Source of the DNA: a virus
Taxonomy: Duplodnaviria; Caudoviricetes
DNA length: 64,000 bases
IMG/VR virus record: IMGVR_UViG_3300033069_001745
Coordinates: 17,161-81,160 of that record
Strand: one strand, 5' to 3'
Every line of letters starts with the position of its first letter. Within the stretch, counting starts at the first letter, position 1. The notes below the pieces were generated by a model that was given only the letters and a program-made list of their open reading frames with translations, was not told the DNA's origin and did not search any database. The position numbers and the translations under genes are program-made. Shown one piece after another: positions 1,189 to 55,435 of the stretch.

Positions 1189-4100
1189 GTGGCTGTTGAC
1201 TTCAGGGCGCTCTATCTCCAGAAGTACCCAGCGGGCGGGACCACGCTCTATGTCAGCGCGTCCGGCAACGACTCGAACCCCGGAACTCAGGCCAGCCCCA
1301 AGCGCCAGATCCAATCCGCCATCAACGCCATGCCTTCAGGCGGCGGCATCATTTACGTTGGTGACGGTAACTACGACGGTTTTTCGTTCTACGCCCGGAA
1401 CTTCAGTGCCAATAGCTGGTGTCACGTCATCTCCCAGAATTACCTGGGGGCAAAGATCGGCGGTGGTATCGGATTCACTCAGAGTAGCTTCGCTGGCATC
1501 TTCGGTCTCGAAGTCAACCCGAACAACCAGGGTGTCAACTGCGTCAGCATCCAGACGACGACGCACAACATCGCAGTGTGGCGGTGCTGGACCCGTAACG
1601 GCCAGGTCGGCATCGGTGCCATGGGCAACCAGGGCGACAGCTCAGCGGCGTGCAACAACGTCTACATCTGCTACAACATCGTCAGCGACAACGCCAAGGC
1701 CACGGTTGACCCTTTCGGCTCCAGTGGTATCAGCTTCTACGACCCGTGGCAGAAGGCGATCTTCCCAGCGAGCACGGGCCCCGACCAGTACGGCTACAGC
1801 AATTACATCGTCGGAAATCTCGTCGTCTGGAACTACCAGAACGGCGAATATGTAGACGGTAATGGCATCATCATCGACGATGGCAACCACACGCAGAACT
1901 ATGGTGGCCCGTCGGGCAATGTCTACACCGAACGTACCCTCGTCATGGGTAATCTCACCGTCAAGAACGGTGGGCGAGGTATCCAGATCTTTGAGACGAG
2001 AAATGTTGACGTCGCCTTCAACACCTCGGCGTACAACAGTTGGAGGAAGAACGATTCTGCCTTCTACGGCGAAATCGGGTATAACGCAGCCTGGGGCGGG
2101 CGCATGCTGCACAACCTCTCGTACCCCGATGCCAACAATGCCTATTGGTTCAGCTACTACAACGCTGATGACATCGAGAACACCGGCAACGTGTTCCTGC
2201 GGGGCCCGCAGTACAACGCCAACGGCAACTACCCAGCGATTGACCGTACTGCTGACGGGCTGAACTACTTCAAGAACAACGCTCCGACGGTCTCGTCTGA
2301 GTGGTCGGGGATGACCTTCACTCAGGCCGACCAGTGGCGCCCTGACGGCGGCTCGGGCGGGATCAACAAGGTCACACTCTCCCAGACGCTCTACGACGCC
2401 TTCTCGCCCTGGCCCGACATGTTCGGTGACCTGCGCCCGGCTCGCACCACGGGATGGGCCACCGGGTTCTCCGAGAGCACAGGCGGTACGGGGACCAACC
2501 CCGGCCCGGTGGCTGCGTTCACCGTGTCGAATCTCACCCCGGGTACCGGCGAGGCCGTCCAGTTCACCGACACCTCGACCGGTAGCCCGACCTCGTGGAA
2601 CTGGAACTTCGGCAACGGCGCTTCGTCGACTTCCCAGAGCCCGAGCTATACCTTCACCACGGCGGGCACCTACACGGTCGTCTTGACCGCGACGAACACC
2701 AATGGGTCGTCACAGTCCACCCAGTCCGTCGTGGTCTCCGAGACCACCCAGGGCCCGGGGCTCGTCACGCACCCCGCCCTGGGCAAGCCTGGTCACTTGC
2801 TGACCTCAACTCAGGTCAGCACGACCAACTCGGGCCACCCGATCTATCGCATCAGCTATCAGATGACCTCGATCACGGGGACGATCGTCTCTGCCTCGGG
2901 TCTCGTGGCGGTGCCGTCGGGTACCGCCCCGAGTGATGGTCGACGGGTGATCCTGGCGGGCCACGGGGCCACCGGCACCAACGATGCGGCAGCGCCGTCC
3001 TATAGCCCGAACACTGGGGCGTTCTCGGGCTCGGTAGGCGATGTGGACGCCTGGCTCAACGCCGGGTTCATCGTGGCCCAGGCCGACTACGAGGGTCTCA
3101 CCTACGGGGGCGACAGCAGCTTGCCCCACCCGTACATGGTGGGTGTCTCCGCCGGGCGTTCACTCCTCGACTGCGGCATCGCCTGCTCCGGTCTGACCAC
3201 CGTCCGGCGCTCGGCCGCCTCGGTGGGCTTCTCCCAGGGTGGACACGCTTCGCTCTTCGCCGGTGAGCTGGCCGACACCTACGCGGTGACCGATTCGGGT
3301 TCGGTCGAGTTCAACGTTCCCGCATTTCCTTCGGGAACCCCGATCAACGTCACCACGCTCGGGGTCTCGGCGTCATCGGGGGCCAACCAGCAGACCGCCA
3401 TTCAGAACGCGTTGAACAACGCGGCGAGCGGGTCGATCATCCAGTTCCCCGCCGGGACCTATTTGCACTCCGGCGTGCTCCAGATCAACAAGCCACTCAC
3501 CATCTTCACGACGGCCGGGGCCATCTTGCGCGGTACCGATCCGCTCAACATGGCGATCCAGGTCAATGCCGATGACGTTCGCATCGAGGGGTTCACCGTC
3601 GAGGGCGTTGGCACCTCGCGTGAGAGCAACGACGACACCCGAGGCGGCATCGCCATCTTGGGCCGGGCCCGTACGGTCATCAAGGGCTGCACGATCAAGA
3701 AGTCGAGCGCTGCCGGTCTGTACATCGACGGGGCCAGCGATTACTACATCATCAACAACAGCGTGCAGAACACGCTCTCTGACTCGATCCACAACACCGG
3801 TTCGTCGCACCACGGCTACGTGCTGAACAACACCGTCACCGGTTCGGGCGATGACAACATCGCTATCGTCAGCTACGGCGGCCAGGACTGCAACAACATC
3901 ACCGTGTTCGGAAACACCGTGACCGGTGGCAACGCCCGTGGTCTCTCGGTCGTCGGTGGGCGCGACTGCATCTTGCAGGGCAACACCGTCACCAGCTCGT
4001 CAGCGGCGGGCATCTACATTGCTTCCGAGCCTAGCTATTCGACGGAAGGCGTCTCGAATATCATCATTCGAGATAATGCGCTCTCTGGGTGTAATACCGA

Positions 4101-29134: not shown

Positions 29135-30046
29135 ATGAGCGCACCATCCTTCCGCCGTGGTGGCGATGCCGCCGAGGAAGCCAACAAGTTCACTTCGTTC
29201 AACCGGGAGAAATTCTTCTCGCTCGCTGACGGTGATAGCTGCTACGTGCGGTTCGTCACGGACGAGAACGAGTGGATCACGGTGGACCAGTACGCCTTCT
29301 TGCCCACCAAGCCAGCTCCGGCTGACTTCTCGGGTACGTGGCCCAAGAGCATGCCCGCTGTGTCGCGCTCCGACCCGGCCTTCGCCAACGTGTACAGCAA
29401 CGACTACGTTGCGGAGTTCATGCGTGACGAGAAGGGCGTGCCCTACAAGACCACTGCCCGTTCCTGGGCTTATGCCTGCATGCGTGAGCAGGTCATCGAG
29501 AACGGTCGTGTCTCGGGGTACCGGGACAAGACGCGTGAGGTGAGCTTCGAGCGCGACGGCAAGACGGTCACCGAGACGATCAAGGACATCGTCATCATCA
29601 ACATGGGGTGGAAGAATTTCTTTTCTCCCCTCAAGGGATTCGCTCGCGCCTACGGCACCGTTGTGGATCGCGACTACTGGATCGAGCGCCGGGGATCGGG
29701 AGTATCGACCACATACTCGATCGTGCCCATGGACGCCATCCCGGGCTACGACCTGCGCGACCCCGAAGTCGCCAAGCTCTACCCCATCGGTCAGCCGCTG
29801 GAGGATCTGGTGATCTCCCGCTCCAACGACGAGTATTACGCCCGTTTCTTCGATCATCGGGTGTCCGCTCCGGCGCAGAACAACTCGAACGGTGCTGCTC
29901 CGCAGGCTGCCCCGGCACCGACTCAGGCCGGACCTCCGCAGGCGTTGCCCCAGCAACCGACGAACGACATCGACCAGAGCCGTCTTCGGGCGCTCCAGGA
30001 TCGAGTCATGGGGTACGCTCCGCCCGCTGCGCCCCAGGGCGCCTAG
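29135..30046 (+). CDS. Phage single-stranded DNA-binding protein (gp32-like)
   Basis: 'FFSLADGDSCYVRFV...YWIERRGSGVSTTYSIVP' with a flexible Pro/Gln/Ala tail; located in the replication operon. Confidence 0.65.
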   Translation: MSAPSFRRGGDAAEEANKFTSFNREKFFSLADGDSCYVRFVTDENEWITVDQYAFLPTKPAPADFSGTWPKSMPAVSRSDPAFANVYSNDYVAEFMRDEKGVPYKTTARSWAYACMREQVIENGRVSGYRDKTREVSFERDGKTVTETIKDIVIINMGWKNFFSPLKGFARAYGTVVDRDYWIERRGSGVSTTYSIVPMDAIPGYDLRDPEVAKLYPIGQPLEDLVISRSNDEYYARFFDHRVSAPAQNNSNGAAPQAAPAPTQAGPPQALPQQPTNDIDQSRLRALQDRVMGYAPPAAPQGA

Positions 30047-30147
30047 ACCCACCGAGGGCCAAGGGGGTTCCCAGGAGGGCGGTGGGGCTGTTACCTCCGC
30101 TCTCCTGGGATCACTTCGTTCGTTCGACGCGCCTGGAAGAGGTTTCG

Positions 30148-33100
30148 GTGGAGTATCAGCGGTGGATCTTGTCGCTCATGCCGTTGGGCGGCTCGACGTT
30201 CTCGATGAACGGACATACCTATGCATCCCCGAGCCTCTTCGAGGACGACCACGGGATGCGGACGCTGGCCCTGCGCCGGGAGCCCGCCGGGTTCCTCATT
30301 CCGGTGCATCTCTGGGTACGGGCGTTCACCGACACCCCGACCATCATCGCCTTCACCGACGACACGGCGTGGTATGGCATCACAGTGCAACAGTGGCTCG
30401 ACGAGCGCACCGAGAACCGGGTGGATGCCACCTACGCCATTGCCCCGGAGAAACTCCGAAGGTTCGATTACTTGCCGTCTTTCAAGGATTTCGTGCTTCT
30501 TGGGAAAGAGTCGATTGCTCCGAAATCTTCGTTCGTCCATCTCCATTCACATAGTGAATTCTCAGCGTTAGACGGGTACTCGCATGTTTCGGAAATGGTT
30601 GCGGAAGCTGTACGCAATAATCAACCTGCCCTGGCGCTGACCGATCACGGTGTCTGTTCGGGACATCCCGCCTTACAGATCGAGGCGAAGAAGGCCGGAA
30701 TCAAGCCTGTCTATGGCATCGAGAGTTATTTTGTTGACGATCGATTCTTCCGACCGATGCGGAAACCGGCCAAGACGCAGTTCAAGGACGAGGACGAGTA
30801 TCAGCGTCTGATTCGGCAGTGGGAAGAGGAGCAGAAGCGGGGGAAGGACTACTGGCACCTCGTGCTGTGGGCCCAGACCGAGGAGGGCTTACGAAACCTC
30901 TGGGCGGCCAGCTCCGAGGCCCAGCGGGAGGGCAAGTACCGGGGCAAACCCCAGATGGATTGGAGCACCCTGGAGCGCCACGCCGAGGGGCTCATGGTGT
31001 CTACCGCGTGCTTGCGGGGCCCGCTGTCGGCCGCCTTGCTCAACGAGAACCACGAGCTGGCCAACCAGCGCCTGGGGCGCTTGATCGACATCTTCGGGGG
31101 CCGAGTGCACCTAGAGATCCATACCAACCAGATGCCCGAGCAGAAGCTCCTGAACGAGCGCCTGATCACGATGGCCCGAGACTTCTCGCTACCCGTGGTG
31201 GCGGTGAGCGACTCGCACTATCCCACCGCCGAGCACAAGCTGTGCCACAAGGTGTGGATCGCTGTGCAGACCGACTCCGATCTGCAAGACGATGCCGACC
31301 TGTTCGCCGGGGACGAGGACTACCACTTGCTCTCCGAGCAGGAAGCTCGACACTCGTTGAGCTACCTCCCGCCCGCCGTGGTGGACGAGGCCATCAGCAA
31401 CACCTCGTTGGTGGCCGAGCAGTGTGACGCCACGATTCGATCCCGAGGCTCGGCTCCCGTGTTCTCCAAGCGCCCGACGAGGGAGGAGTCTCAGCGCCGG
31501 GACGTGGAGCGCCTCACCGAGATTTGCCTGAACAACTGGCACAAGACGGTGGGCAAGAAGTTCCCCCAGGAGATCTATGAAGAGCGGTTTGCTCGTGAAA
31601 TGAAGCTCCTGGTTAATAAGGATTTCTGTGGATACTTCCTTATGGTTTCGAATTACTGCCGCCATGCACGGGACAACGGGGTATTAGTCGGCCCCGGAAG
31701 GGGCAGTGGTGGAGGCTGTTTGGTCGCTTATTTAGCGAACATAACTGAGATAGACCCGGTTGAAGCCGAACTCATCTTCGAGAGATTCCTCACCTCGGGG
31801 CGTAAGGGGCTTCCTGATTTTGACGTCGACTTCCCATCTTCCATGCGCGAATGGTTGACCAACTTCATTATCGACTACCACGGCGAGGATCACGTGGTGC
31901 GGGTGGGGACACACACCTACCTCCGCAACAAGGGAGCGGTGCGCTCGCTGGCCAAGGTGCTCGGGTCGACGATCCAGATTCACTTCCCGGACATTGAGAT
32001 GATCTGTGCCATCATCGACGAGGCCGAAGCCGACTCGGCGGGCTTGGGGCGGGCCTGGGATGAAGTGTGGACAGCGTTCCCCCAGGAGTACGAGCAGTGG
32101 TCGAGCAAGTATCCACTCTTGTTCGAGATGGCGGAGAAGATCGTGGGGCGCCTCTCCACCTACGGCCAGCACCCGGCGGGCGTGGTGATCGCCACCGATG
32201 CCCCGCTCAAGGGTGAAGTGCCGATGCGCTACACCCCGAGCGGTCACGCGGTGTCCGAGTGGAACATGGAAGCGCTGGAGTCGATCGGGTTGGTGAAGTT
32301 CGACCTCCTGACCATCCGTAACCTCGACACGCTCCAGGAGGGCGTGGACATCGACTCCCGCCTGGCCCAAGAGGCCGCCTCGTTCGGGGCTCGGGTGGCC
32401 GAGGAGACCGGGGAGCGCATCGACTTCTACTCCTGGACCGCCGAGTACGACGACCCCGAGGTATGGGACGCCATCTGTGCCGGTGACACACTGGGGATGT
32501 TCCAGATCGAGACCTACGCCGGTACCGCCATGTGTCGGCGCTACAAGCCCCGGTCGATCCAGGAGCTGGCCGACGTGATCACGCTCATCCGCCCCGGCCC
32601 CATGCGATCCGGCCTGACCGACACCTTCCTGCGCCGTCGTCACGGTGAGGAGGAGGTGACCTTCCCTCACCCACTCCTGGAACAGGTGCTCTCGAAGAGA
32701 TACGGCACGATTATTTACCAGGAGGACATCCTCAGCGTCTGCATGATTCTCGCTAAATACGACGAGAACGAAGCGGACGAGGTTCGAAAGATTCTCGGGA
32801 AGAAGAAGGTCGAGGAAGCGAAAGAAGCCGGTTTAAAGTTCGTCCATCGCTGTGAGGAGAACGGTGTTCCTCGATCTGTTTCCGAACCCCTTTGGGAGCA
32901 GATGGAGGAGTTCGCCAAGTATAGCTTCGGTAATGCGCATGCATTTGGATATGCCACTATAGCCTTCTGGTGCGTCTCAGGTGCAACTAAGATATATGAT
33001 TGGGACAATAAAGAGTATATTAGTGTCTCCAAGGCATTCAAGCGTGGTGTTGACCATGTAGCTTGCTTCGATGAGGAAACTGGCAAGACCATCCGGGGTA

Positions 33101-34095
33101 AAGTTAAGAAGGTTATACGAACCAATGATCTTCACTCTAAGACTATGGGGTGGGTTGTCAGAACCAAGTCTAATAAGAGGCTTGAGTGTAGTATAGATCA
33201 TAGGATTCTTACGCCAGACGGTTACAAGAAGGTTTCTGAATTACTTCCTGGAGATATGGTTGCTAGCGAGAAGCGCGTCTCTGTGATGACTGACGAGAGG
33301 CGCCGGGCTATCGCTGAGGGGGTGCGTCGTCACTGGGAGGGGATGAGCCAGGATGATAAGAGATTAAGAATTGAGCGCACTAAGGAATCGCTGCCTACTG
33401 AATTACGTTCAACCGCTGCGAAACTTGGATGGTCTCGCATGGATAGCGATGAACGTGAAAGTCGCGTTAAGAAATTGGTAGAGTCTGCGACAGGAGGTAC
33501 TTGGGGTGCTTGTCGCAGGGGCGTGGTTGAAAAGTGTGGTCACCGGTACGCGTCCAGTAACGAGAGATTTATATGTGAATGGTTCAATCTACATGGGATA
33601 GATCATGAGTCTCAGGTTTGGGTTGGATCAGGGTTTGCTGATTGGCGTGTGAAGGGTGTATTCATAGAGTTTGATGGATTGGATAGACATGAGTCATACT
33701 TCGAGAATAAGTTTGGTGATGATCCGTATATTGTAATCAAGGATATCAATTACGTAGACCATGACTTACACTTCTTTCTTGAAGAGGATATTATGCGTTC
33801 TGGTGGGTTTGTCACGTTTGAGCCAATTGTCAGTATCACTCCATCTAAACCGATTATTATGTATGACATAGTCATGGAGCAGGCTCCACATAATTTCTTG
33901 GCGGATGGAATAGTGGTACACAACTGCGCGTGGCTAAAGGTCCGGAAGCCGCTGGCCTTCCTCACGGCGGTGCTCTCGACGGCTGACGCCAAGCGCATCC
34001 CGGACTTCATCGAGGAGGCGCGCCAGCGAGGGATCACGCCACTTCCGCCCGACATCAACACCTCGGATCGACGGTTCTCGGTGGTGCGCCGGTGA
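30148..34095 (+). CDS. dnaE: DNA polymerase III alpha (DnaE), N-terminal part, with intein
   Basis: PHP motif HLHSHSEFSALDG, LTDHG, GPGRGSGGG, LPDFDVDF, HPAGVV, KFDLL, RPGP, IIYQE. Start placed at GTG 30148 (SD GAGG), about 130 aa before the PHP domain. Confidence 0.93.
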   Translation: MEYQRWILSLMPLGGSTFSMNGHTYASPSLFEDDHGMRTLALRREPAGFLIPVHLWVRAFTDTPTIIAFTDDTAWYGITVQQWLDERTENRVDATYAIAPEKLRRFDYLPSFKDFVLLGKESIAPKSSFVHLHSHSEFSALDGYSHVSEMVAEAVRNNQPALALTDHGVCSGHPALQIEAKKAGIKPVYGIESYFVDDRFFRPMRKPAKTQFKDEDEYQRLIRQWEEEQKRGKDYWHLVLWAQTEEGLRNLWAASSEAQREGKYRGKPQMDWSTLERHAEGLMVSTACLRGPLSAALLNENHELANQRLGRLIDIFGGRVHLEIHTNQMPEQKLLNERLITMARDFSLPVVAVSDSHYPTAEHKLCHKVWIAVQTDSDLQDDADLFAGDEDYHLLSEQEARHSLSYLPPAVVDEAISNTSLVAEQCDATIRSRGSAPVFSKRPTREESQRRDVERLTEICLNNWHKTVGKKFPQEIYEERFAREMKLLVNKDFCGYFLMVSNYCRHARDNGVLVGPGRGSGGGCLVAYLANITEIDPVEAELIFERFLTSGRKGLPDFDVDFPSSMREWLTNFIIDYHGEDHVVRVGTHTYLRNKGAVRSLAKVLGSTIQIHFPDIEMICAIIDEAEADSAGLGRAWDEVWTAFPQEYEQWSSKYPLLFEMAEKIVGRLSTYGQHPAGVVIATDAPLKGEVPMRYTPSGHAVSEWNMEALESIGLVKFDLLTIRNLDTLQEGVDIDSRLAQEAASFGARVAEETGERIDFYSWTAEYDDPEVWDAICAGDTLGMFQIETYAGTAMCRRYKPRSIQELADVITLIRPGPMRSGLTDTFLRRRHGEEEVTFPHPLLEQVLSKRYGTIIYQEDILSVCMILAKYDENEADEVRKILGKKKVEEAKEAGLKFVHRCEENGVPRSVSEPLWEQMEEFAKYSFGNAHAFGYATIAFWCVSGATKIYDWDNKEYISVSKAFKRGVDHVACFDEETGKTIRGKVKKVIRTNDLHSKTMGWVVRTKSNKRLECSIDHRILTPDGYKKVSELLPGDMVASEKRVSVMTDERRRAIAEGVRRHWEGMSQDDKRLRIERTKESLPTELRSTAAKLGWSRMDSDERESRVKKLVESATGGTWGACRRGVVEKCGHRYASSNERFICEWFNLHGIDHESQVWVGSGFADWRVKGVFIEFDGLDRHESYFENKFGDDPYIVIKDINYVDHDLHFFLEEDIMRSGGFVTFEPIVSITPSKPIIMYDIVMEQAPHNFLADGIVVHNCAWLKVRKPLAFLTAVLSTADAKRIPDFIEEARQRGITPLPPDINTSDRRFSVVRR
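32971..33924 (+). mobile_element. Intein (318 aa) with internal nuclease-like domain
   Basis: Starts at C (CVSGATKIY), has block B 'LECSIDHRILT', and ends 'YDIVMEQAPHNFLADGIVVHN' followed by +1 Cys. Visibly lower GC than the flanks. Removal restores GYATIAFW|CAWLK. Confidence 0.93.
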
Positions 34096-53945: not shown

Positions 53946-54020
53946 GGCGACGCCGGGCCAGGAGGGGTGAGGAACGGTATGGCGAGGCGGCGTATGGCTG
54001 GGACCGGAAGGGCAAGGCAG
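53946..54020 (+). repeat. Pentamer array 1 (15 x GGY-NN), putative guide RNA
   Basis: GGCga CGCcg GGCca GGAgg GGTga GGAac GGTat GGCga GGCgg CGTat GGCtg GGAcc GGAag GGCaa GGCag; non-coding. Confidence 0.88.
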
Positions 54021-54051
54021 GGGCAGTACACACAACAGTCTCATTCTTCAC

Positions 54052-54101
54052 GGTGAGGTCTGGCGTGGCATGGTTTGGAGCGGCATCGCAAGGCAAGGTT
54101 A
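54052..54101 (+). repeat. Pentamer array 2 (10 x GGY-NN), putative guide RNA
   Basis: GGTga GGTct GGCgt GGCat GGTtt GGAgc GGCat CGCaa GGCaa GGTta, preceded by ATTCTTCAC. Confidence 0.88.
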
Positions 54102-54124
54102 TAATAACCCGATAATTATCCATC

Positions 54125-54170
54125 TGTCATGATATGACATGAGAAATCTAGAGTAGAGATGTTCTAGATT
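54125..54170. promoter_or_regulatory. Two inverted repeats in the AT-rich leader of the RAMP gene (operator candidates)
   Basis: TGTCAT-gat-ATGACA (54125-54139) and AATCTAGA-N10-TCTAGATT (54145-54170). Confidence 0.45.
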
Positions 54171-54235
54171 GCCGTGAAGTCTGATCGCACATCTGCTAGA
54201 AATTTCTGTGTTCAAAGGTTGAGAGGAAGATCGCT

Positions 54236-54859
54236 ATGAAGAGGGTTTCGTTGGATATCACCGGGGTGGGGCCAATGCTGATGCACAGTGATCGGCTCGC
54301 TAATCCCCGTGACCCCATCGTGCGTGAGATCAAGCTCATCACGTCGAAGCGCACGATGACCGACGAGGACCTCGACGAGAAGTCTTGGCTGGAGTTCCAG
54401 GGTGGGCTGTACTGGTTCGAGGGCGCGGCCGACGAGATCGGCGGGGTCTACCTGCCCGCCTGGAACTTCAAGCGGTCCTTCCAAGATGGAGCGAAGATCA
54501 ACCGCCTGGGGCAACACGTGTCCCGTGGGGTGGCTCTGCTTCATGAGCGATGCATGCTCAACTTCCCGGGCCGAGATCACGCATCGGGTGTGCGCAAGAC
54601 CGAAGCAGACCTCTTTGCCGAGGGCACTCGGTTCGCCTACACCTGTCTCGTCGGGGTGCAGAATAGTCGGGTGCTCCGGACTCGACCGAAGTTCGTCGGC
54701 TGGAGCACCAACATCACCGTGGCTGTTGACCCCATGGTGCTCGATGTCGACGGTTTTGTAGACATCGCTGCTCGGGCCGGGCGTATGGTTGGCATCGGTG
54801 ACTTCCGTCAACAGTATGGGCGATTCGAGGTGTCGAATGTTTCAATCGAAGATCTCTGA
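54236..54859 (+). CDS. Standalone RAMP/Cas7(Csm3)-like protein
   Basis: N-terminal beta strand 'LDITGVGPMLMH'; 'YLPAWNFKRSF' (cf. RAMP 'IPGSSLKG'); 'RTRPKFVGWSTNITV'; C-terminal G-rich loop 'AGRMVGIGDFRQQYGRFEV'. Confidence 0.75.
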   Translation: MKRVSLDITGVGPMLMHSDRLANPRDPIVREIKLITSKRTMTDEDLDEKSWLEFQGGLYWFEGAADEIGGVYLPAWNFKRSFQDGAKINRLGQHVSRGVALLHERCMLNFPGRDHASGVRKTEADLFAEGTRFAYTCLVGVQNSRVLRTRPKFVGWSTNITVAVDPMVLDVDGFVDIAARAGRMVGIGDFRQQYGRFEVSNVSIEDL

Positions 54860-55322
54860 TGGGCCAGCCCAGTGGGAACGCCTGCGCGACCTCGTGCAGG
54901 GGTCTCCGCCGGGAACCCTCTTCGACTTCGATGTGCTGACCGAAGCGATCGAGTGCAGCCGGGATCAGGTGAGCGCGATCGTCTTCCAGCTCAACAAGAA
55001 GATGCCGTCAACCGGCATACGGCTGGTCAGCGTGCCCTCTCGGGGCTATGCCGTGGCTACGGCGGGCGACAAGTTGCGGGAGGCCACCCTGGTGCGCCCA
55101 AAGAAGATTCAGCGCCAGGTGCTCTACACCATCCAGGCGGCGGAGTCGGTGCTCCATGGCCCAGACGCTTCACCGGATGAGCAGGAGTCGGCCATGAAGG
55201 TGGCCACCGAGAGTTCCAGTGTTCTTCTGTGGGCCAAAGACCGCAGTCGCATGGTTTCTCGGATGATGAAGAACGGCAAGAGAAACGATGTTTCTCAAAG
55301 CGGTATGCCAATCATCGAGTAA
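54837..55322 (+). CDS. Winged-helix DNA-binding protein coupled to the RAMP gene
   Basis: SD GAGGTG plus ATG 54837; 'VLTEAIECSRDQVSAIVFQLNKKM...IRLVSVPSRGYAV' is an OmpR/PhoB-like wing. Confidence 0.65.
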   Translation: MFQSKISDGPAQWERLRDLVQGSPPGTLFDFDVLTEAIECSRDQVSAIVFQLNKKMPSTGIRLVSVPSRGYAVATAGDKLREATLVRPKKIQRQVLYTIQAAESVLHGPDASPDEQESAMKVATESSSVLLWAKDRSRMVSRMMKNGKRNDVSQSGMPIIE

Positions 55323-55330
55323 TTCTTCGC

Positions 55331-55435
55331 GGCCTGGCAGGGTAATACGTGGCAGGGAGCGGCTTGGTTCTGAACGGCTAGGTATGGCAGGGGTTGGTTC
55401 GGAGCGGCGAGGCATGGCATGGCTAGAACGGGTAA
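55331..55435 (+). repeat. Pentamer array 3 (21 x GGY-NN), putative guide RNA
   Basis: GGCct GGCag GGTaa TACgt GGCag GGAgc GGCtt GGTtc TGAac GGCta GGTat GGCag GGGtt GGTtc GGAgc GGCga GGCat GGCat GGCta GAAcg GGTaa, preceded by ATTCTTCGC. Confidence 0.9.

What the first reader, a model, noticed from the sequence alone, without database searches (positions are those of the whole stretch)
53946..55435. The variable dinucleotides read as three distinct, partly AT-rich target codes
Seen: array 1 NN = GA CG CA GG GA AC AT GA GG AT TG CC AG AA AG (16/30 GC); array 2 = GA CT GT AT TT GC AT AA AA TA (5/20 GC); array 3 = CT AG AA GT AG GC TT TC AC TA AT AG TT TC GC GA AT AT TA CG AA (15/42 GC). They are unrelated to each other, and arrays 2 and 3 are far below the genome's high GC. 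Inference: these are acquired or selected specificity strings, with AT-rich ones aimed at promoters or foreign DNA. If one target base is skipped per unit (NN-x-NN-x), a target in coding frame would be immune to wobble-position escape; array 1 read this way gives a plausible peptide (D/E-R-H/Q-G-D/E-T-I/M-D/E-G-I/M-C/W-P).
Basis: partly seen in the sequence, partly recalled or inferred. Interest (0 to 1): 0.8.

Follow-up and report, generated by a model that had tools for sequence, protein, structure and literature searches.

The report
Phage VIPR guide-RNA arrays, targets unknown

Summary
Observation confirmed. Three same-strand arrays of GGY-NN pentamers (16, 10 and 21 units) are the only ones in the 81-kb phage contig and score far above shuffles.

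They flank a 207-aa gene that matches the solved SUSP1 Vipr protein over its full length (E 6e-19) and folds as a Cas7/Csm3-type RAMP. A weakly vap-like gene follows it. This is a VIPR locus (bioRxiv 10.64898/2026.04.26.720920 and 2026.10.15.759431).

It is supported by family membership, not by data from this locus.

The AT-richness argument is weak. In 135 arrays from related high-GC loci, NN GC averages 0.45, so low NN GC is the family norm. The last two or three units of arrays 1 and 2 also look like a semi-conserved handle rather than code.

No convincing target was found. There are no self hits and no exact matches for arrays 1 or 3. Array 2 matches 20/20 only in about 45% GC Gram-negative prophage or metagenome DNA, at a rate close to my rough chance estimate.

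This scan has already met VIPR loci in hundreds of other genomes. Verdict: a new member of a known kind.

The parts
53946..54025 (+). vrRNA array 1: 16 GGY-NN units (unit 2 CGCCG and unit 10 CGTAT are degenerate). It ends GGCAA GGCAG GGGCA, which fits the family's semi-conserved 3' end.
54026..54051 (+). 26-nt linker between arrays 1 and 2. It contains GTCTCAT, also found just before array 1, and ATTCTTCAC, the leader shared with array 3 (ATTCTTCGC).
   Evidence: direct reading
54052..54101 (+). vrRNA array 2: 10 units (unit 8 CGCAA is degenerate). It ends GGCAA GGTTA, and the last unit runs into the palindrome GGTTAT-A-ATAACC.
54097..54235 (.). AT-rich (about 38% GC) control region upstream of vipr. 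It holds several palindromes (GGTTAT/ATAACC, GATAATTATC, TGTCAT-N3-ATGACA, AATCTAGA-N10-TCTAGATT) and the vipr ribosome-binding site. This is probably the promoter/operator of the vipr-vap operon (inferred).
54236..54859 (+). vipr: a 207-aa RAMP protein homologous to the SUSP1 Vipr protein
54837..55322 (+). Candidate vap (161 aa from the ATG at 54837, overlapping the end of vipr). It is a divergent relative of the genes downstream of vipr in SUSP1, Medea1, LittleE and Trine and shares their GY(R/A)V wing motif.
   Evidence: no Pfam hit
55331..55435 (+). vrRNA array 3: 21 units, 3 of them degenerate (TACGT, TGAAC, GAACG). It may hold more than one guide. It is preceded by the leader ATTCTTCGC and followed after 20 nt by the next gene's ATG.

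Best explanation
This is a VIPR (Viral Interference Programmable Repeat) locus of a large actinobacterial myovirus. It consists of two vrRNA arrays upstream, then vipr, then a vap-like gene, then one long array downstream, all on one strand.

By analogy with the characterised SUSP1 and P. fulva systems, the arrays are transcribed into vrRNAs and Vipr subunits polymerise along the GGY-NN repeats. The GGY triplets are held by the protein and do not pair. The two N of each unit pair with double-stranded DNA that reads NN-x-NN-x, one skipped base per unit. Binding then represses transcription of a competing mobile element such as a rival phage, prophage or satellite.

Shown here: the arrays, their statistics, their strand and position relative to vipr, Vipr homology and fold, and the family-wide link between such arrays and vipr. 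Inferred from the literature: transcription, RNP formation, the 1-nt skip rule and silencing. Unknown: the actual targets, and how many guides array 3 holds.
For: Vipr: the protein matches PDB 36pp 'SUSP1 Vipr protein' over residues 1-202 versus 1-190, E 6.2e-19. tblastn finds homologues in 131 phage records, including phiSUSP1. The AlphaFold model has pLDDT 93.4, and the top Foldseek hits are Csm3/Cas7 RAMP subunits of type III and VII CRISPR complexes (prob 1.00, E about 3e-5). The glycine-rich C-terminal motif G-x-G-D-x-R-x3-G-R-F is conserved.

Arrays: three GGY-NN arrays, the only ones in 81 kb. All five first comparators (SUSP1, Medea1, LittleE, Trine, L001) and 55 of 80 IMG/VR Vipr loci carry such arrays: 157 on the vipr strand against 1 on the other, with position 3 being C or T in 93% of units. 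NN differs between relatives while promoter-like and terminator flanks are conserved.

Other: the downstream gene is vap-like by hhalign (82%, E 1e-5, 97 columns). The context is viral: PHROG hits, an actinophage-type terminase, and an IMG/VR virus record estimated 57% complete. There is no self-target at skip 0-2, as the papers report for natural VIPR loci.

The mechanism comes from bioRxiv 10.64898/2026.04.26.720920 and 10.64898/2026.10.15.759431.
Against: No natural target was found for any array. Exact xNN scans found nothing for array 1 in the viral, metagenome or genome collections and nothing for array 3 units 10-19. Array 2's matches are no more than my rough chance estimate and lie in the wrong host phylum.

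The regions after the arrays fold weakly: -13.4, -7.6 and -8.8 kcal/mol, against a mean of -17.1 in 156 related arrays. No conserved structured tail is evident.

Six units are degenerate. The vap assignment is weak: BLASTP is not significant and there is no Pfam hit. Nothing here shows that the arrays are transcribed.
Confidence: 0.88

Rival explanations
1. A decaying or idle VIPR locus. The gene pair is intact, but the arrays are eroding remnants with degenerate units and weak tails, and they no longer guide anything.
For: Six degenerate units are spread across the arrays, and array 3 is interrupted three times. The 3' regions fold much more weakly than in relatives. No target was found in any collection.
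Against: The papers describe internal degeneracy as frequent in working vrRNAs. GG is kept in 42 to 45 of 47 units. The shared leader motifs and the family-typical end GGCAA GGCAG GGGCA are kept. Missing targets are expected for an uncultured wastewater phage searched only by exact match.
Confidence: 0.08
2. The arrays are fixed binding platforms for a multimeric RNA- or DNA-binding protein (TRAP-like triplet-plus-spacer sites, iterons, or a centromere or origin), and NN is merely unconstrained spacer, not code.
For: The period-5 triplet-plus-2-nt layout resembles TRAP sites (my own knowledge). That was my first guess before any search.
Against: The neighbouring gene is a Vipr homologue, not a TRAP, Rep or Par protein. 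Experiments on the homologous SUSP1 system showed that NN determines target specificity and can be reprogrammed. The triplet here is GGY, not GAG or UAG.
Confidence: 0.03
3. A compositional or chance artefact of GC-rich intergenic DNA.
For: None beyond the G-richness of the region.
Against: The array scores (7.5 to 14) are above every one of 100 surrogate sequences (maximum 7). The same feature recurs next to vipr in 55 of 80 unrelated contigs with a 157:1 strand bias.
Confidence: 0.01

Closest known systems
Type II VIPR of Escherichia phage SUSP1 (Vipr, vap1 and four vrRNAs; PDB 36pp; bioRxiv 10.64898/2026.04.26.720920)
   Same: The Vipr proteins are homologous over their full length (28.6% identity, E about 1e-19). 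Both have a two-gene vipr-vap operon with GGY-NN arrays upstream and downstream on the same strand. Both are phage-encoded and lack cas genes and CRISPR repeats.
   Different: Here the scaffold is mostly GGC rather than GGT. SUSP1 has an invariant tail of about 40 nt with a pseudoknot; none is evident here. Array 3 has 21 units, beyond the 9-16 reported. The vap is only weakly similar. The host is an actinobacterium. Which published type this locus belongs to could not be checked, because the supplementary tables are not held.
VIPR loci of actinobacteriophages and high-GC IMG/VR contigs (Gordonia phage Trine gp41, Mycobacterium phage LittleE gp34, L009-L011)
   Same: These are the closest Vipr proteins (39-43% identity). 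They share the GGC-NN scaffold and the semi-conserved array end GGCA(A/G) GGRNN.
   Different: In L009-L011 each guide is its own unit: a TGATAGAGT-like -10 element, the array, GGCAG GGAGA, then a strong GC hairpin. The window's arrays lack that hairpin and have the short leaders GTCTCAT and ATTCTTCRC instead.
Cas7/Csm3 backbone subunits of class 1 CRISPR effectors
   Same: The RAMP fold is shared (Foldseek prob 1.00, TM about 0.45-0.53). In both, a protein filament holds a guide RNA and periodically blocks base pairing (paper).
   Different: About 10% sequence identity. There is no CRISPR repeat-spacer array, no other cas genes, and no adaptation module nearby. Pairing is interrupted at three of every five guide bases rather than one in six.

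Membership tests
VIPR system | Vipr protein homologous to an experimentally characterised Vipr | tested here: met
   PDB 36pp SUSP1 Vipr, E 6.2e-19, full length. BLASTP gives 4.7e-27 to SUSP1 gp039 and 1.8e-40 to Medea1.
VIPR system | Minimal RAMP fold (RRM core, glycine-rich loop, thumb) | tested here: met
   Model pLDDT 93.4. Top 40 Foldseek hits are Csm3/Cas7 RAMPs. G186, D189, R191 and G195 are invariant or nearly so. I did not map the thumb residue by residue.
VIPR system | Tandem GGY-NN (YNNGG) pentamer arrays of at least 4 units next to vipr, on the same strand | tested here: met
   Arrays of 16, 10 and 21 units, all + strand, flank the gene pair. The same layout is seen in SUSP1 and in 55 of 80 relatives.
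VIPR system | NN hypervariable while GGY and flanks are conserved among relatives | tested here: met
   L009 versus L010 (77% Vipr identity): flanks align, NN strings differ. All comparators have different NN. No relative with Vipr more than 43% identical to this phage's was available, so this was not tested within this phage's own lineage.
VIPR system | Accessory vap gene downstream of vipr | tested here: inconclusive
   hhalign against four vaps: 82% probability, E 1e-5, 97 columns, with the shared GYxV motif. BLASTP is not significant and there is no Pfam hit.
VIPR system | Invariant structured 3' tail after each repeat tract | tested here: inconclusive
   The terminal units fit the family's semi-conserved end. 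The three downstream regions share no clear motif and fold weakly, with z-scores near 0.
VIPR system | Natural targets matching NN under the 1-nt skip rule | tested here: inconclusive
   Only exact matching was possible. Arrays 1 and 3: none. Array 2: 20/20 at two independent sites in about 45% GC DNA, roughly what I estimate by chance. Skips 0, 2 and 3 were tested only on local data.
VIPR system | vrRNAs expressed and bound by Vipr | not testable with these tools
   Needs small-RNA sequencing and a pull-down.
CRISPR-Cas (class 1) | Repeat-spacer array plus multiple cas genes, including a large subunit or a nuclease | tested here: not met
   No CRISPR-type repeats in 52-58 kb. Neighbouring genes carry no Cas domains.
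TRAP-type RNA-binding attenuation sites | GAG/UAG triplets with 2-3 nt spacers, plus a TRAP (MtrB) protein | tested here: not met
   The triplet is GGY. The Pfam scan of 8 nearby ORFs found only dGTP_diPhyd_N and DUF6085.

The most novel reading that the evidence does not exclude
This actinophage lineage uses a variant vrRNA architecture. It has short shared leaders (GTCTCAT, ATTCTTCRC), no hairpin or pseudoknot tail, and a 21-unit tract that is either one very long guide or several guides joined without tails. Its unusually AT-rich guides (arrays 2 and 3) would then be aimed at AT-rich non-coding control regions of rival elements rather than at coding sequence.
Probability: 0.15. Interest if true: 0.45.

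Novelty: new member of a known kind. Interest (0 to 1): 0.3.

Why it matters
The locus adds an actinobacterial myovirus to the VIPR family.

It also gives a family-wide baseline: NN GC is about 0.45 whatever the genome GC, and the 3' terminal units are semi-conserved. That baseline should temper any reading of single guides as "AT-rich, therefore promoter-directed".

The biological payoff, knowing which rival element this phage silences, is still open. It needs mismatch-tolerant searches or experiments.

Tried and rejected
1. My first hypotheses were TRAP-like RNA-binding sites, or dsDNA iterons or a partition site. I dropped them once the PDB match to Vipr appeared.
2. Rfam: no family matches in 50-60 kb at E <= 1.
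3. The single-sequence fold of Vipr was useless (pLDDT 31). I repeated it with a 14-sequence alignment.
4. Exact 1-nt-skip scans found nothing for: array 1 units 1-12, 3-11 and 7-15, and a G/U-wobble-tolerant version of units 3-15, in viral contigs; array 1 units 3-13 in metagenome and genome contigs; array 3 units 10-18 in viral contigs and 10-19 in genome contigs.
5. Array 2 matches 20/20 in L006 and L007, which are one homologous site at a SAR-endolysin/Rz-like junction of a Gram-negative prophage, in frame with the Rz-like start. It also matches in L008, an unrelated 47% GC contig. I reject these as likely chance. I estimate about 0.1-0.3 such hits in the viral set and about 2 in the metagenome set; the collection sizes are my own assumptions, not stated by the tools. 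The host phylum is wrong for a phage with an actinophage-type terminase. If units 9-10 are handle rather than code, the match has less meaning still.
6. Cross-targeting between 174 arrays and 1.09 Mb of local sequence (this phage plus all fetched loci) at skip 0-3 gave nothing at 19/20 or better, apart from the circular array 2 hits.
7. The genome search by relatives or taxon is not available for a virus record, and the control genomes come without handles. Mismatch-tolerant scans of actinobacterial genomes were therefore not possible.
9. The paper's supplementary tables are not held, so the VIPR type could not be looked up.
10. I decoded the guides into degenerate peptides in both orientations and recognised no motif. 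No tool searches such degenerate peptides.

Full report
**The observation.** Read in 5-nt register, 53946-54025, 54052-54101 and 55331-55435 are runs of GGY-NN units (16, 10 and 21 units). Over the 47 units, position 1 is G in 42, position 2 is G in 45, and position 3 is C 24, T 12, A 9, G 2. Positions 4-5 are mixed. A phase-aware scan of the whole 81,160-bp contig on both strands finds only these three arrays, all on the + strand. Their scores are 11.5, 7.5 and 14.0, against a maximum of 7 in 100 surrogate sequences. The three NN strings are no more similar to one another than unit-shuffled controls. Rfam has no match.

**What it is.** The 207-aa ORF between arrays 2 and 3 (54236-54859) has no Pfam hit but belongs to phrog_4652. 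It matches one solved structure, 36pp "SUSP1 Vipr protein", over its full length at E 6.2e-19. Two 2026 preprints describe the family. In VIPR systems, a minimal RAMP protein (Vipr), usually one accessory gene (vap), and vrRNAs of alternating GGY/NN motifs recognise double-stranded DNA through the NN dinucleotides, with one skipped target base per unit. The skip base usually falls on codon wobble positions, and the outcome is transcriptional repression of competing phages, prophages or satellites.

With a 14-sequence alignment the protein folds confidently (pLDDT 93.4). Its best structural matches are Csm3/Cas7 subunits of type III and VII CRISPR effectors (prob 1.00, E about 3e-5). That Foldseek library predates the 36pp entry. 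The C-terminal glycine-rich motif is conserved with SUSP1 and across 14 homologues.

The next ORF (ATG at 54837, 161 aa) has no Pfam hit and no significant BLASTP match. It does align to a profile of the genes downstream of vipr in SUSP1, Medea1, LittleE and Trine at 82% probability (E 1e-5, 97 columns), sharing the "GY(R/A)V" wing motif. I treat it as a probable but unproven vap.

**Family-wide test of the link between arrays and vipr.** tblastn finds Vipr homologues in 131 phage records, including phiSUSP1, Gordonia phage Trine, Mycobacterium phage LittleE and Pseudomonas phage Medea1. All four, plus an IMG/VR contig, carry GGY-NN arrays on the vipr strand. Of 80 further IMG/VR loci found with the Vipr alignment, 55 have at least one array within 2.5 kb at my threshold. 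There are 157 arrays on the vipr strand and 1 on the other, and position 3 is C or T in 93% of units. In L009 and L010 (77% identical Vipr), the promoter-like element, the terminator hairpin and the vipr promoter align, while the NN strings are entirely different. NN behaves as variable code in a conserved scaffold.

**The AT-richness argument.** In 135 arrays from related loci with mean GC 0.66, NN GC is 0.45 +/- 0.09. In 13 arrays from low-GC loci it is also 0.45. NN well below genome GC is therefore the family norm. That is roughly what pairing with codon positions 1-2 while skipping the GC-rich third position would give. In this phage's long ORFs the three codon positions have GC 0.60, 0.48 and 0.80. 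Array 1 (0.53) is ordinary, array 3 (0.36) sits at about the 15th percentile, and array 2 (0.25) at about the 3rd.

Array ends in the family are also semi-conserved. The second-last unit is GGCAG or GGCAA in 41% of 144 arrays, against about 12% for interior units. The last unit usually breaks the GGY rule. Arrays 1 and 2 end GGCAA GGCAG GGGCA and CGCAA GGCAA GGTTA. Their last two or three NN pairs are therefore probably handle rather than code. For array 2 that removes AA, AA and TA and leaves 5/14 GC. Only array 2 remains unusually AT-rich, and only modestly. The inference "aimed at promoters or foreign DNA" is possible but not supported. The "plausible peptide" reading has no discriminating power, since any NNx string can be read without a stop.

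**Target search.** None of the three guides matches the phage's own 81 kb above shuffled-guide nulls at skip 0, 1 or 2. The skip-3 hits are the arrays themselves. This agrees with the reported absence of self-targeting.

Only exact-pattern scans of the big collections were available. Array 1 found nothing in viral, metagenome or GTDB genome contigs, using five sub-patterns of 18-24 specified bases plus one wobble-tolerant 13-unit pattern. Array 3 units 10-19 found nothing.

Array 2 found a 20/20 match in L006 and its homologue L007, at the junction of a SAR-type endolysin and an Rz-like ORF in a 44-47% GC prophage of Gram-negative bacteria. The match is in frame with the Rz-like start codon. 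There is a second, unrelated 20/20 match in L008. With 20 mostly A/T specified bases I estimate about 0.1-0.3 chance hits in the viral set and about 2 in the metagenome set. These figures rest on my own assumed collection sizes. The four other 18-base patterns gave no hits in the viral set.

This phage's terminase groups with Mycobacterium, Gordonia and Rhodococcus myoviruses. I therefore read the array 2 hits as chance. A local all-against-all test gave nothing at 19/20 or better beyond those circular hits. It used 174 arrays as 10-unit windows against 1.09 Mb, at skips 0-3. The skip rule itself could not be tested on this locus.

**Differences from the described systems.** The scaffold is mainly GGC. 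Arrays 1 and 2 lie 26 nt apart upstream of vipr, and array 3 is long and interrupted three times. The closest relatives, L009-L011, have a clear unit structure: a TGATAGAGT-like -10 element, the array, GGCAG GGAGA, then a strong hairpin. The window's arrays are instead preceded by short shared motifs (GTCTCAT before arrays 1 and 2; ATTCTTCRC before arrays 2 and 3). They are followed by weakly folding sequence: -13.4, -7.6 and -8.8 kcal/mol, against a family mean of -17.1. Between array 2 and vipr lies a 38% GC stretch packed with palindromes, probably the operon's promoter/operator. These differences could mean a variant vrRNA architecture or partial decay. RNA data are needed to tell.

**Verdict.** The AT-richness inference and the peptide argument do not hold up as evidence, and the targets remain unknown. 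The class has been in print since April 2026, and this scan has already met it in hundreds of other genomes. This is a new member of a known kind, of modest interest.

Noticed in passing
L036:1875-1922 (minus strand) against the array at L036:3465-3544: In a related IMG/VR VIPR locus, the 3' eleven units of one guide match 20/22 NN positions at skip 1. The match is in codon register, inside the divergently transcribed 541-aa gene just upstream of its own vipr; overall the match is 24/32. I estimate the chance of this within its own locus at about 1e-3. One possible reading is a guide aimed at the same gene in rival relatives, with the phage's own copy spared by mismatches.
   Followed up: partly
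L002:3283-3351, and the tails after the arrays in L002 and L003: In Gordonia phage Trine and Mycobacterium phage LittleE, the sequence after the arrays contains T-arm-like GGTTCGA(n)TCC motifs. ARAGORN calls a tRNA-like element about 90 nt after Trine's array. This may be a tRNA-like processing signal in the vrRNA tails of that clade.
   Followed up: no
L002:3085-3888 (Trine gp40): The annotated 267-aa gp40 of Trine runs through the vrRNA array (3128-3192) and the tRNA-like element. Only its C-terminal part, from about residue 100, aligns with other vaps, so the annotated start is probably too far upstream.
   Followed up: partly
L009, L010, L011 (for example L011:1400-2360): Each vrRNA has its own conserved promoter-like motif (C)TGATAGAGTCA about 10 nt before the first GG unit, an invariant end GGCAG GGAGA, and a GC-rich hairpin followed by TTCGT. 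Each guide therefore looks like a separate transcription unit.
   Followed up: partly
window 54097-54235: A 38% GC stretch with four or more palindromes (GGTTAT/ATAACC, GATAATTATC, TGTCAT-N3-ATGACA, AATCTAGA-N10-TCTAGATT) lies directly upstream of vipr. It is operator-like, and no regulator has been identified.
   Followed up: partly
window 29542-34092: The DNA polymerase III alpha (DnaE-type) gene has a weak, sub-threshold Pfam match to an intein splicing domain near its C-terminal part (34.0 bits against a cut-off of 35.8). The phage also encodes RecA, a DnaB-like helicase and a DEAD/Helicase_C_2 helicase.
   Followed up: no
G000 (whole contig): The record is an IMG/VR linear contig that CheckV estimates to be 57% complete. 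The true genome is therefore probably about 140 kb, in line with the cluster-C-like actinophage terminase (31-33% identity).
   Followed up: no
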